A stretch of DNA of 5,553 nucleotides from a virus (lineage: Duplodnaviria > Heunggongvirae > Uroviricota > Caudoviricetes), in IMG/VR virus record IMGVR_UViG_2541047097_000025; one strand, written 5' to 3'. Within the stretch, counting starts at the first letter, position 1, and every line of letters starts with the position of its first letter. The translations under genes and the position numbers were made by a program. Shown one piece after another: positions 3,584 through 4,650 of the stretch. The notes under the pieces are model-generated. The model worked only from the letters and a program-made list of their open reading frames with translations. It did no database searches and was not told the origin of the DNA.

Positions 3584-3871
3584 TTAGTCCTTATCCACTT
3601 CAACGCCATCTTTCAGCGTGATGCCGTGCCAATCATCAGCCCAACTGGTTAACCCAGGCGCATCAATGCTAGGCATATAGACGCTTGCAGTGTGGTAGCC
3701 CTTATCGTTATCAATGCTGGCAACGTGCTCGCCGTTGTATGCGCTCAGCGTGTCTAGGACACTATAAAACTTTCCTCCGGCTGCCCTGAAATCCTTTACA
3801 GCCTTCACAAGACGATTCCACGCTTTTTCCTGTTCTGGCGTCAGGTCGATTAATTCCTGCAAAGTTGCCAT
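3584..3871 (-). CDS. Hypothetical small phage protein (95 aa)
   Basis: Start ATG 3869-3871 with an SD (AAGGAAAA) embedded in the last codons of the upstream gene (pattern TGA-A-ATG). The stop TAA at 3584-3586 is coupled to the DUF551 gene start. Confidence 0.7.
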   Translation of the reverse strand: MATLQELIDLTPEQEKAWNRLVKAVKDFRAAGGKFYSVLDTLSAYNGEHVASIDNDKGYHTASVYMPSIDAPGLTSWADDWHGITLKDGVEVDKD

Positions 3872-3872
3872 T

Positions 3873-4091
3873 TCAGTTTTCCTTATATGGGTTAATTTTA
3901 TTGTGCAGTGTGTTGAACGACGCCCATACCACGTCGTTATACAACTCAATAACTAGCTCAATTATTTTCCCGATTGCCCAGACAAAAATTAGCGGGGATA
4001 TCGGTGTCATCAACACGATAAACAGAATGAGAAACAAAAATTCTGTCGCTCTACTTTTTCGCGGATATTCTTTTCTGAATAATGTAGGCAC
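3873..4091 (-). CDS. Small single-pass membrane protein (72 aa), AT-rich gene
   Basis: Basic N-terminus (RKEYPRKSR) followed by one hydrophobic segment (FLFLILFIVLMTPISPLIFVWAIG). GTG start at 4089-4091 preceded by an SD (AAAGGAGAG) and the upstream stop (pattern TGA-T-GTG). The gene is visibly AT-rich relative to its neighbours. Confidence 0.52.
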   Translation of the reverse strand: MPTLFRKEYPRKSRATEFLFLILFIVLMTPISPLIFVWAIGKIIELVIELYNDVVWASFNTLHNKINPYKEN

Positions 4092-4105
4092 ATCACTCTC
4101 CTTTG
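4089..4105. repeat. Direct repeat copy 1 (CACATCACTCTCCTTTG) at the junction of the 71-aa and 72-aa genes
   Basis: Shares the exact 13-mer ATCACTCTCCTTT (4092-4104) with 4309-4321, and 15 of 17 positions overall. On the coding strand it reads AAAGGAGAGTGAT plus start codon. Confidence 0.8.
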
Positions 4106-4308
4106 TTGCTCCTCAAAATTTTATGCCCTGGCGCAAAAGCACGCGTTTTGTCTTTGCTTATTCGCCAGCCATCCTTGCGCGCCTCTTTTGCACAGCCAGC
4201 CCATGACGTACCGATATACTCACCGAAGTCTGGCGACTTATATTTGCCATCTGTACACTGGAGGCAATCACAATAGAGATGCATGGTGTAACTTGCAGCA
4301 ATAGCCAT
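4093..4308 (-). CDS. Hypothetical Cys-containing small protein (71 aa)
   Basis: ATG 4306-4308 preceded by an SD (AAAGGAGAG) and the upstream stop (pattern TGA-T-ATG). Contains a CxCxxC cluster plus a distal Cys. The ORF-track start at 4380 is a GTG with no SD. Confidence 0.6.
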   Translation of the reverse strand: MAIAASYTMHLYCDCLQCTDGKYKSPDFGEYIGTSWAGCAKEARKDGWRISKDKTRAFAPGHKILRSNKGE

Positions 4309-4322
4309 ATCACTCTCCTTTA
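4306..4322. repeat. Direct repeat copy 2 (CATATCACTCTCCTTTA) at the junction of the 62-aa and 71-aa genes
   Basis: Same 13-mer as copy 1, in the same position relative to a stop codon and the next start codon. Confidence 0.8.
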
Positions 4323-4498
4323 GTGCGCAAGTGGTTTTTCCAGCGGTTTTGCTCCGCGCTGGGCTTTTTGCAAAAACCACAATCCATCATCCCGTAATAT
4401 TTCATCAACCCCATCCGTCGGTTGCTGAGTCTCACCCACTGCCAGACGCCAGGAGCGTTTCTACGAACTAACAGAATCTTTGCTTTACGGTTTTTCAT
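4310..4498 (-). CDS. Hypothetical small basic protein (62 aa) with C-terminal CxxC
   Basis: Internal ATG 4496-4498 with a strong SD (AGGAGAG) 7 nt upstream, and an ATGA overlap with the stop of the upstream 51-aa ORF. Alternative model: a 109-aa protein starting at ATG 4639 in the same frame, which lacks an SD. Confidence 0.5.
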   Translation of the reverse strand: MKNRKAKILLVRRNAPGVWQWVRLSNRRMGLMKYYGMMDCGFCKKPSAEQNRWKNHLRTKGE

Positions 4499-4650
4499 CG
4501 TTTTGCTCTCCTGCATCTCTTTGCTGCTCGTCGTGCCGCTGCAATACCGGTATGGCGGCGCTTTGGTGTCGGGATGATGTTCTTTGCAATTAGCGCAGAA
4601 GCCCAAAAACGAGTCGGATACGGTAACAAGCCGATACATGCCACACGCAT
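4495..4650 (-). CDS. Hypothetical small protein (51 aa), hydrophobic N-terminus and Arg/Lys-rich tail
   Basis: Not in the ORF track. ATG 4648-4650 overlaps the Ead-like stop as TAATG and has an SD (GAGGTGA) about 5 nt upstream. The stop TGA at 4495-4497 overlaps the next ATG. The last 12 codons use rare Arg codons, so the model is tentative. Confidence 0.4.
   Translation of the reverse strand: MRVACIGLLPYPTRFWASALIAKNIIPTPKRRHTGIAAARRAAKRCRRAKR

What the first reader, a model, noticed from the sequence alone, without database searches (positions are those of the whole stretch)
3584..4650. Block of five small overlapping unknown genes in the early-left accessory position
Five ORFs of 51-95 aa are chained with stop-start spacings of 0-1 nt or overlapping (TAATG, ATGA, TGA-T-ATG, TGA-T-GTG, TGA-A-ATG). 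Each has its SD embedded in the last codons of the preceding gene. The products are a basic Arg-rich peptide, two Cys-containing proteins, a single-pass membrane protein and an acidic 95-aa protein; I recognise none of them. In lambdoid phages the region between the Ea22-type genes and xis-int is a hotspot for anti-restriction, anti-defence and superinfection-exclusion cargo. A small membrane protein co-translated with small Cys-rich partners would also fit a toxin/abortive-infection or exclusion module.
Basis: partly seen in the sequence, partly recalled or inferred. Interest (0 to 1): 0.68.

Follow-up and report, generated by a model that had tools for sequence, protein, structure and literature searches.

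The report
Shuffled small accessory genes of phage 933W
The five tightly packed small genes are real, conserved protein-coding genes of the well-known Shiga-toxin phage 933W, but they are independently swappable accessory cassettes of unknown function, not one five-part machine, so the finding is largely ordinary.

Summary
Five minus-strand ORFs (51, 62, 71, 72 and 95 aa) fill 3584-4650 with the stated junctions, and all five show purifying selection in frame (dN/dS 0.09-0.44).

The window is 100% identical to the left arm of Stx2 phage 933W/VT2-Sakai in wrbA. Four of the genes are long-annotated hypotheticals (L0066-L0068 plus one added later). g1 is missing from both the 1999 record and RefSeq.

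The block is not a functional module. The five-gene order occurs in only 6 of 221 distinct neighbourhoods and in 86 of 5426 complete E. coli genomes, whereas pieces occur in 1384. Only g1-g2 is tightly linked (85/85), and g3 often follows. g4 (DUF4014, single-pass membrane) and g5 (acidic) travel independently.

Homology breakpoints pile up at gene junctions, which share the linker AAAGGAGAG-TGA-T-ATG. The linker combines the Shine-Dalgarno site, stop codon and start codon.

There are no internal promoter- or terminator-like sites, so the genes are translationally coupled members of the early-left operon.

No function could be assigned. There are no Pfam (except DUF4014), NCBIfam, PADLOC, PDB or fold matches. 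g3 belongs to a widespread uncharacterised zinc-knuckle-like phage family (phrog_926). The toxin/abortive-infection idea is not supported, and the "variable cargo hotspot" idea is.

The parts
4495..4650 (-). g1: 51-aa very basic micro-protein (the common form elsewhere is 57-58 aa). It is unannotated in 933W (AF125520) and in RefSeq. Its start overlaps the Ea22-type stop (TAATG).
   Evidence: ORF and junction. phrog_13831 E 1.7e-27. dN/dS 0.35 vs 0.94-1.38 in shifted frames. Codon-position bias 27/21/41, p=0.03. Always followed by g2 (85/85). N-terminal ~24 aa conserved, with frameshifted C-terminal variants. Not called by PGAP.
4310..4498 (-). g2: 62-aa basic protein. MKNRKAK at the N-terminus is invariant, the C-terminus SAAQNRWKNHLRTKGE is mostly conserved, and the middle evolves fast. 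It is often present as two tandem paralogues in other phages.
   Evidence: phrog_1380 E 1.9e-40. Alignment. Segment pS/pN. Tandem copies in 38 of 81 distinct g1 loci. Cys not conserved, and the C2H2 hit is below the Pfam cut-off.
4093..4308 (-). g3: 71-aa member of phrog_926, a widespread stand-alone small phage protein with a two-knuckle Cys/His motif (LYCDCxxC ... ARxxGW ... CxAPxH or CPxC). It is a probable zinc binder. The 933W record annotates it too long (L0068, 95 aa from GTG 4380).
   Evidence: Alignments. 396 representative clusters. All 73 sampled members hit phrog_926 and none hits a Pfam family above threshold. AF2 model pLDDT 79. No solved-fold match. BFVD matches to uncharacterised phage proteins.
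3873..4091 (-). g4: 72-aa DUF4014 protein (933W L0067) with a GTG start and a single transmembrane helix at about residues 19-37. The N-terminus is basic.
   Evidence: PF13198 88.5 bits vs cut-off 23.2, full length. phrog_1832. Hydropathy 2.68. dN/dS 0.20.
3584..3871 (-). g5: 95-aa acidic protein (933W L0066, phrog_2821). It is the most strongly constrained of the five.
   Evidence: dN/dS 0.09. Codon-position bias 40/34/150, p=1.6e-25. Homologues across Enterobacteriaceae, all 'hypothetical'. AF2 model unusable (pLDDT 55).
4306..4321 (-). Shared junction linker AAAGGAGAG-TGA-T-ATG (g2|g3). It combines SD, stop, one base and start, and it encodes the K-G-E C-terminus of g2.
   Evidence: Sequence. 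The same linker is found between many different gene pairs in other phages. Breakpoint clustering.
4089..4104 (-). The same junction linker, AAAGGAGAG-TGA-T-GTG (g3|g4).
4650..5423 (-). Context: Ead/Ea22-like gene (933W L0069) that heads the cassette array. Its C-terminal RGE codons form the SD site for g1.
   Evidence: PF13935 E 1.5e-35. Annotation. Junction.
2957..3580 (-). Context: DUF551/EaA-like gene (L0065), coupled to g5 (TAA-CAC-ATG).
   Evidence: PF04448 E 1.8e-23. Junction.
2680..2964 (-). Context: L0064 (phrog_625), the last gene of the coupled chain. Its real start is probably GTG 2964-2962, overlapping the L0065 stop by 8 nt (94 aa, not the annotated 121 aa).
2627..2678 (-). Two tandem terminator-like hairpins. 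These are the first such sites downstream of the block on the coding strand.

Best explanation
The region is a string of five small, individually exchangeable accessory-gene cassettes. They are embedded in the early-left (pL, N-antiterminated) operon of the Stx2 prophage 933W/Sp5, between the Ea22-type gene and the DUF551 (EaA-like) gene.

Shown: each ORF is a genuine protein-coding gene under purifying selection. There are no internal promoter- or terminator-like sites. Every start lies within a few bases of the preceding stop (0-1 nt apart or overlapping within the block, 3 nt at g5|L0065), with the Shine-Dalgarno site inside the last codons of the upstream gene. The coupled chain runs Ea22 > g1 > g2 > g3 > g4 > g5 > L0065 > L0064 and is followed by terminators. 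The genes assort independently among lambdoid, phiV10-like and P1-like phages, and breakpoints concentrate at the gene junctions. Many of those junctions carry the same about 13-16-nt linker (AAAGGAGAG-TGA-T-ATG). Only g1-g2, often with g3, behaves as a linked sub-block.

Inferred: the genes are made as delayed-early proteins by translational coupling or re-initiation after infection or induction, and are silent in the repressed lysogen. The common linker both drives coupling and serves as the short homology at which cassettes are swapped, probably helped by the phage's own Exo/Bet. Each product acts on its own on a host or competitor target. On this reading, g4 acts at the inner membrane, g3 is a small zinc-binding protein, g1 and g2 are very basic nucleic-acid- or ribosome-binding candidates, and g5 is an acidic binder. 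All are dispensable for the core phage cycle.
For: Identity and annotation: 100% identical to 933W, VT2-Sakai and about 40 other Stx phages. 933W gene map. RefSeq calls.

Coding status: dN/dS 0.09-0.44 in frame against 0.59-2.40 in shifted sense frames. Codon-position bias. Full-length PHROG family matches for all five. DUF4014 for g4.

Operon structure: junctions. No minus-strand promoter- or terminator-like sites inside 3584-4650, with the first terminators at 2678-2627. L0064 overlaps L0065 by 8 nt.

Independent assortment: the five-gene order occurs in 6 of 221 distinct spans. Conditional co-occurrence: g1>g2 1.00, g2>g1 0.82, g2>g3 0.61, g3>g4 0.31, and g5>others 0.11-0.18. 1384 of 5426 E. 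coli genomes hold a piece but only 86 hold at least 80% of the block, and 329 places are on plasmids. Ea22-g2-g3-DUF4014 occurs in the P1-like phage D6.

Linker and breakpoints: the same junction lies upstream of g3, g4 and g5 and downstream of g2, g3 and Ea22-type genes in different phages. 403 of 497 homology endpoints, and 46 of 67 distinct positions, lie within 20 nt of a junction against 20% expected.

Dispensability: phi24B has the same backbone and none of the five genes.

Concept: short conserved boundary sequences are a recognised route to phage mosaicism (PMC3029335).
Against: No expression data were examined. pL dependence, coupling and silence in lysogens are inferred from sequence and from lambda biology.

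The shared linker could be partly convergent, through selection for a strong SD plus stop-start arrangement, and need not be a recombination substrate. 13-16 nt is short for efficient homologous exchange.

Breakpoint and co-occurrence counts come from loci ascertained by each gene (the best 80 hits per gene) and from related sequences, so the p-values overstate independence.

No biochemical function is shown for any product. The g5 structure model failed, and g1 has only modest selection evidence and common frameshifted variants.
Confidence: 0.75

Rival explanations
1. The five genes form one co-functional module: a toxin/antitoxin, abortive-infection or superinfection-exclusion operon in which the membrane protein g4 works with the small Cys-containing partners.
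For: Tight packing and translational coupling. One product is a single-pass membrane protein.
Against: Partners of such modules must co-occur. g4 is found with g3 in 39% of distinct neighbourhoods, with g2 in 28%, with g1 in 17% and with g5 in 14%, and half of g4 contexts have none of them. The full block is present in 86 genomes against 1384 with pieces. There is no PADLOC match. The Cys residues of g2 are not conserved. The same tight coupling extends to unrelated neighbours (Ea22, L0065, L0064), so it is a property of the operon, not of this set.
Confidence: 0.04
2. g1-g2, often with g3, is a genuine small functional unit. It would consist of two very basic micro-proteins, one of them fast-evolving and frequently duplicated, acting together. 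Possible roles are a counter-defence or host-takeover factor that binds nucleic acid or the ribosome. Alternatively, g1 could be a leader ORF that sets g2 translation.
For: g1 is followed by g2 in 85 of 85 distinct neighbourhoods, and g2 is preceded by g1 in 82%. The pair has an ATGA overlap. g2 has a variable middle (pN 0.2-0.43) between an invariant N-terminus and a mostly conserved C-terminus, and tandem paralogues occur in about half of loci, a pattern typical of arms-race genes. Both are extremely basic.
Against: Linkage may simply reflect shared descent in a family confined to Escherichia. g1 frameshift variants that lose the Arg-rich tail are common. Selection evidence for g1 and g2 is the weakest of the five. 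There is no homology to any characterised protein.
Confidence: 0.3
3. The genes are lysis-lysogeny or host cell-cycle modulators like the characterised exo-xis genes of lambda and Stx phages (orf60a, orf61, orf63, ea8.5, ea22).
For: They are in the same operon and the same exo-xis interval. The exo-xis region as a whole affects lysogenisation and induction, and the paper notes further uncharacterised ORFs in Stx phages (PMC7093339).
Against: None of the five is homologous to those genes; the 933W orf60a/61/63 homologues lie upstream as L0070-L0072. The experimental model phi24B lacks all five, so published phenotypes do not cover them. Their patchy distribution argues against a core regulatory role.
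Confidence: 0.15
4. Some or all of the ORFs are non-functional: chance ORFs or decaying remnants kept open by drift.
For: They are small and lack any functional annotation. g1 is absent from RefSeq annotation. ORF coverage in shuffles can reach 94%. g2's codon-position bias is not significant (p=0.14).
Against: In-frame dN/dS is well below the shifted-frame controls for all five. ORFs stay intact, with in-frame indels only, across 31-67 distinct alleles each. Families span several genera (g5) or many phage groups (g3).
Confidence: 0.04

Closest known systems
Phage 933W / VT2-Sakai (Sp5) genes L0066, L0067, L0068 and the two ORFs between L0068 and L0069
   Same: 100% nucleotide identity over the whole block. 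The position is the same: Ea22-like L0069 upstream, EaA-like L0065 downstream, and int-xis at attL in wrbA.
   Different: Nothing differs in sequence. The gene models differ. The 1999 record lacks g1 and g2 and extends L0068 to 95 aa. RefSeq has g2 and the 71-aa g3 but still lacks g1.
Mosaic early-region cassettes joined at short conserved boundary sequences (the Susskind-Botstein/Clark model of lambdoid mosaicism, as summarised in PMC3029335)
   Same: Breakpoints lie at gene boundaries. A common short sequence occurs at many different junctions. Exchange takes place among lambdoid, phiV10-like and P1-like phages.
   Different: Here the boundary sequence is itself the translational-coupling signal (SD + stop + start) and lies partly inside the upstream coding sequence, fixing a K/R-G-E C-terminus. 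Recombination at it is inferred, not demonstrated.
Morons (HK97-type: a gene with its own promoter and terminator inserted between conserved genes)
   Same: Small, dispensable, patchily distributed genes of unknown or host-directed function.
   Different: There are no promoter- or terminator-like sites flanking the individual genes. They depend on the operon's transcription and on coupling to the upstream ORF, so they are operon-embedded cassettes, not autonomous morons.
Lambda exo-xis region genes (orf60a, orf63, orf61, ea22, ea8.5)
   Same: Same operon and interval. Small proteins that are non-essential. The Ea22-type gene is the immediate neighbour.
   Different: No sequence relationship to any of the five. 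None of their published phenotypes was measured in a phage that carries these five.
HK97 gp15-type small inner-membrane superinfection-exclusion proteins (comparison from my own knowledge, not tested)
   Same: g4 is a small single-pass membrane protein encoded as phage accessory cargo.
   Different: No homology was tested or found. g4 sits in a repressed early operon, not in a lysogen-expressed moron, so classical prophage-mediated exclusion is less likely.

Membership tests
Pfam DUF4014 (PF13198), for g4 | Full-length match above the curated gathering score | tested here: met
   88.5 bits against a cut-off of 23.2, residues 2-72 on profile positions 2-72 of 72. RefSeq names it 'DUF4014 family protein'.
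PHROG families (g1 phrog_13831, g2 phrog_1380, g3 phrog_926, g4 phrog_1832, g5 phrog_2821) | End-to-end profile match | tested here: met
   E-values from 1.7e-27 to 4.7e-66, each covering the whole profile. All are 'unknown function' except phrog_1832, whose label 'released from the phage upon host infection' I could not trace to any paper.
Toxin-antitoxin / abortive-infection / defence system | Obligate co-occurrence of the component genes | tested here: not met
   Co-occurrence of g4 or g5 with the others is 0.11-0.39. The full block occurs in 6 of 221 spans.
Toxin-antitoxin / abortive-infection / defence system | Match to a known defence-system protein model | tested here: not met
   No PADLOC hit for any of the five at E<=0.1.
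Toxin-antitoxin / abortive-infection / defence system | Toxicity of one component that is relieved by another; protection against phage | not testable with these tools
   Needs expression and plating experiments.
Known anti-defence proteins (Ocr, ArdA, Ral, Gam, Acr, Tad, Gad and others) | Sequence or fold similarity to a characterised inhibitor | tested here: inconclusive
C2H2 zinc finger (g2) | Score above the Pfam cut-off and conserved Cys/His ligands | tested here: not met
   zf-C2H2_jaz scores 16.4 bits against a cut-off of 22.6. The Cys residues are replaced by E, H, M, Y or S in homologues, and there is only one His.
Small zinc-binding (two-knuckle) protein (g3) | Two conserved pairs of Cys/His ligands at the N- and C-terminal knuckles | tested here: inconclusive
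   C13 is invariant. C15 and C18, and the C-terminal C-x-A-P-x-H / C-P-x-C, are conserved across 73 diverse members. Metal binding itself is not testable here, and the AF2 model carries no metal.
Lambda Ea8.5 / exo-xis gene families | Detectable homology to orf60a, orf61, orf63, Ea8.5 or Ea22 | tested here: not met
   There are no such Pfam or PHROG hits for g1-g5. The homologues are other genes of 933W.
Moron | Own promoter and terminator flanking the gene | tested here: not met
   No sigma-70-like or terminator-like sites occur on the coding strand within 3584-4650. This was a consensus scan only.
Boundary-sequence mosaic cassette | Homology breakpoints at gene borders and a shared short sequence at different junctions | tested here: met

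The most novel reading that the evidence does not exclude
The g1-g2 pair (with g3 frequently attached) is a previously unrecognised small-protein module of Escherichia phages. It would comprise an unannotated, invariably upstream micro-ORF coupled to a fast-diversifying, often duplicated, very basic protein. The pair would act as a counter-defence or host-takeover factor, with the variable middle of g2 tracking a variable host target. A weaker add-on is that the SD-stop-start linker is a dedicated cassette-exchange site, analogous in logic to integron attC sites but using homologous recombination.
Probability: 0.2. Interest if true: 0.55.

Novelty: already known. Interest (0 to 1): 0.25.

Why it matters
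Stx phages drive the virulence of enterohaemorrhagic E. coli, and most of their early-left genes are still 'hypothetical'. Knowing that these five are independent cassettes tells experimenters to test them singly, with g1-g2 tested as a pair. It also tells them not to expect a multi-component phenotype.

The work gives three small practical corrections:
- g1 is a conserved ORF missing from RefSeq.
- L0068 and L0064 are annotated too long in the 933W record.
- The 'K/R-G-E' C-terminus of Ea22 proteins, described as unexplained, coincides with the ribosome-binding site of the next gene.

None of this changes current understanding of phage biology.

Tried and rejected
Homology routes that gave nothing for the five proteins:
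- Pfam (apart from DUF4014), NCBIfam and PADLOC.

Structure:
- The g5 model had pLDDT 55 and was not used for fold search.
- The AlphaFold-database libraries were unavailable.

Literature:
- Searches for DUF4014, for the PHROG label 'released from the phage upon host infection', and for the 933W, EDL933 and Sakai locus tags returned nothing relevant.
- Two phage accessory-gene screens do not contain these peptides.
- The Pas sRNA preprint is unrelated to this region.

RNA: Rfam found nothing in the window.

Annotation leads rejected:
- The 'RNA-binding protein' label in phage Dewey belongs to a different, larger gene.
- The plus-strand 113-aa ORF 3865-4206 spans g4 and g3, which separate in other phages. 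The low antisense dN/dS is the expected wobble-sharing artefact.
- A lipoprotein or TM reading of g1 is rejected. Its Cys is at position 5 and is often Phe, and its maximum hydropathy is 1.24.
- The hairpin-preceded version of g4 is not a different genomic location; it sits in the same array type.
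Full report
**What the window is.** The 5553-base window is the left end of a wrbA-integrated Stx2 prophage. The 1067-base block is 100% identical to phage 933W, VT2-Sakai, Min27, Stx2 converting phages I and II, and about 40 other records. In 933W coordinates it lies between the Ead/Ea22-like gene L0069 and the EaA-like DUF551 gene L0065. 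It is downstream of exo-bet-gam and of the lambda orf60a/61/63 homologues, and upstream of xis and int. Everything is on the minus strand.

**Check of the observation.** reproduces the five ORFs and their junctions exactly as described:
- g1, 4495-4650, 51 aa
- g2, 4310-4498, 62 aa
- g3, 4093-4308, 71 aa
- g4, 3873-4091, 72 aa, GTG start
- g5, 3584-3871, 95 aa

The junctions are TAATG, ATGA, TGA-T-ATG, TGA-T-GTG and TGA-A-ATG. Each has a purine-rich SD in the last codons of the upstream gene. The physicochemical descriptions hold.

Gene models differ between records. The 1999 record lacks g1 and g2 and extends g3 to 95 aa. RefSeq has g2 and the 71-aa g3 but not g1.

**Are they genes?** The ORF layout alone is only moderately unusual: 99.9% coverage against a mean of 56% and a maximum of 94% in shuffles. 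The comparative evidence is stronger. I fetched about 390 related loci and extracted 31-67 distinct alleles per gene.

In-frame dN/dS for g1-g5 is 0.35, 0.44, 0.21, 0.20 and 0.09. Shifted sense frames give 0.59-2.40, always above the in-frame value. The one low antisense frame is the expected wobble-sharing artefact. Variable sites are enriched at third positions, significantly for g1, g3, g4 and g5 (g5: 40/34/150) but not for g2 (p=0.14). All length variants are in frame, including a 7-codon insertion that makes the common g1 form 58 aa.

All five match PHROG families end to end, and g4 is a DUF4014 protein. g1 and g2 have the weakest support. g1 has an invariant N-terminal core of about 24 residues. 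However, common variants have a frameshifted C-terminus that removes the Arg-rich tail.

**Not a five-gene module.** Partial matches in the phage collection already broke at gene borders. On de-duplicated neighbourhoods, the order Ea22-g1-g2-g3-g4-g5-L0065 occurs in 6 of 221, all 933W-like. The commonest contexts are g4 alone, g5 alone, g1-g2-g3 and g1-g2.

Conditional co-occurrence within 2 kb:

| Pair | Frequency |
|---|---|
| g1 > g2 | 1.00 (85/85) |
| g2 > g1 | 0.82 |
| g2 > g3 | 0.61 |
| g3 > g2 | 0.72 |
| g3 > g4 | 0.31 |
| g4 > g3 | 0.39 |
| g5 > any of the other four | 0.11-0.18 |

In 5426 complete E. coli genomes, 1384 carry some piece, only 86 carry at least 80% of the block, and 329 places are on plasmids. 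The P1-like phage D6 carries Ea22-like, g2, g3 and DUF4014 next to pmgU, hot and humD. Phi24B belongs to the same genus and has the same recombination and regulatory backbone, but it has none of the five. Other small genes fill the slot. This contradicts the toxin/abortive-infection/exclusion-module reading and supports the 'variable cargo slot' reading.

**How the array is built and expressed.** The scan found no promoter-like or terminator-like sites on the coding strand inside the block. The first terminator-like hairpins are at 2678-2627, after L0064. L0064 most likely starts at GTG 2964, overlapping the L0065 stop by 8 nt. That start coincides with the N-terminus of its PHROG profile. So the coupled chain is Ea22 > g1 > g2 > g3 > g4 > g5 > L0065 > L0064.

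From lambda biology I infer expression from pL with N antitermination after infection or induction, plus translational coupling. Neither was measured.

**The junctions.** Across loci, the sequence AAAGGAGAG-TGA-T-ATG/GTG recurs between many different gene pairs. The Ea22 3' end (GCATTCGCATCAAAGGAGAGTGAT) directly precedes g3, g4 or g5 in different phages, and a close variant of it, overlapping as TAATG, precedes g1. Of 497 informative homology endpoints between the window and the loci, 403 lie within 20 nt of a gene junction, against 20% expected. On distinct positions the figure is 46 of 67, p about 9e-18. Additional peaks inside g2 correspond to its conserved ends and variable middle.

This is the 'short conserved boundary sequence' route to mosaicism (PMC3029335). 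Here the boundary sequence doubles as the coupling signal. The counts are inflated by shared ancestry and by ascertainment on each gene, and convergence on a good SD and stop-start arrangement may contribute.

**What the proteins are.**
- **g4** is a DUF4014 single-pass membrane protein with a basic N-terminus, so probably N-in.
- **g2** has an invariant MKNRKAK start and a mostly conserved C-terminus (SAAQNRWKNHLRTKGE). Its middle evolves fast (pN 0.2-0.43) and its Cys residues are not conserved. Two tandem copies occur in about half of g1-bearing loci.
- **g1** is confined to Escherichia.
- **g5** is acidic, occurs across Enterobacteriaceae and is strongly constrained. Its model failed.

No library, solved structure or searched paper gives any of them a function.

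**Verdict.** The region is a long-known part of the 933W genome and a typical mosaic array of coupled accessory cassettes. The only sub-unit that might be a 'system' is g1-g2, possibly with g3. Its linkage, extreme basicity, duplication and fast-evolving core fit an arms-race role, but that is inference. Novelty is 'already known', and interest is low to moderate.

Noticed in passing
window 4650-4664, 4310-4321 and 4093-4104 (minus strand); also loci: The C-terminal K/R-G-E tripeptide of Ea22 proteins is described in PMC7093339 as being of unknown significance. Here it is encoded by AGAGGTGAG or AAAGGAGAG, which is the Shine-Dalgarno site of the next, coupled gene. g2 and g3 end in KGE for the same reason. 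The motif may therefore be a nucleotide-level constraint and not a protein feature.
   Followed up: partly
window 4495-4650 (g1); 4093-4380 (L0068 as annotated); 2680-3045 (L0064 as annotated): There are three annotation problems in public records. g1 is absent from AF125520 and from RefSeq PGAP calls. L0068 is annotated 24 codons too long and overlaps g2. L0064 is annotated 27 codons too long; its likely start is GTG 2964, overlapping the L0065 stop by 8 nt.
   Followed up: yes
window 4650-5423, residues 145-243 of the Ea22-like protein: The C-terminal half of the Ea22-like protein matches the PADLOC model 'DpdH' (PDLC02890) at E 1.4e-36. Either a prophage Ea22-type domain is built into that defence-system model, or the domain is truly shared. 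RefSeq calls the protein only 'ead/Ea22-like'.
   Followed up: no
loci L300, L280, L108, L190 and others: g2-type ORFs (MKNRKAK...) occur as two tandem paralogues with ATGA overlaps in 38 of 81 distinct g1-bearing loci. The upstream copy ends ...RKKGYAVR.
   Followed up: partly
proteins P0165 and P0161; corresponds to window about 4485-4589: Common g1 variants, one seen on 95 contigs, carry a frameshift that replaces the Arg-rich tail with an acidic tail (…AAIPVLHRHDEQQRNAGEQNDEKP). This is the alternative-frame 34-aa ORF visible in the window.
   Followed up: no
protein P0170: A 134-aa protein contains two tandem g3-type domains (E 3e-77, two matched stretches). This is either a fusion of duplicated cassettes or a lost stop at the linker.
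   Followed up: no
window 2249-2272 and 2627-2678: A bidirectional terminator-like hairpin lies between xis and L0063. Two tandem terminator-like hairpins lie between L0064 and L0063. Together they delimit the end of the coupled early-left chain.
   Followed up: no
window 1-579 (minus strand), attL core about 548-554: The truncated wrbA reading frame stays open across attL. Phage DNA supplies a new ATG and about 8 codons (MINHILRH...), giving a 192-aa hybrid ORF whose start overlaps the int stop by 4 nt. The N-terminal flavodoxin-fold segment of WrbA is replaced, so function is doubtful.
   Followed up: no
window 2309-2620 (L0063, 103 aa): This small protein has a weak ClpX-type C4 zinc-finger signal (CSLC...CLNC; Pfam E 0.015, below cut-off). 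It sits where lambda has ea8.5. It has no PDB sequence match, so it is not detectably related to the solved Ea8.5 homologues.
   Followed up: partly
locus L398 (phi24B, HM208303 1-9000): In phi24B the gene called ea22 (vb_24B_6c) is a DUF550+DUF551 fusion. The slot down to xis holds DUF1382/DUF1627-type genes instead of the five studied here. 'ea22' in the Stx-phage literature therefore covers architecturally different proteins.
   Followed up: no
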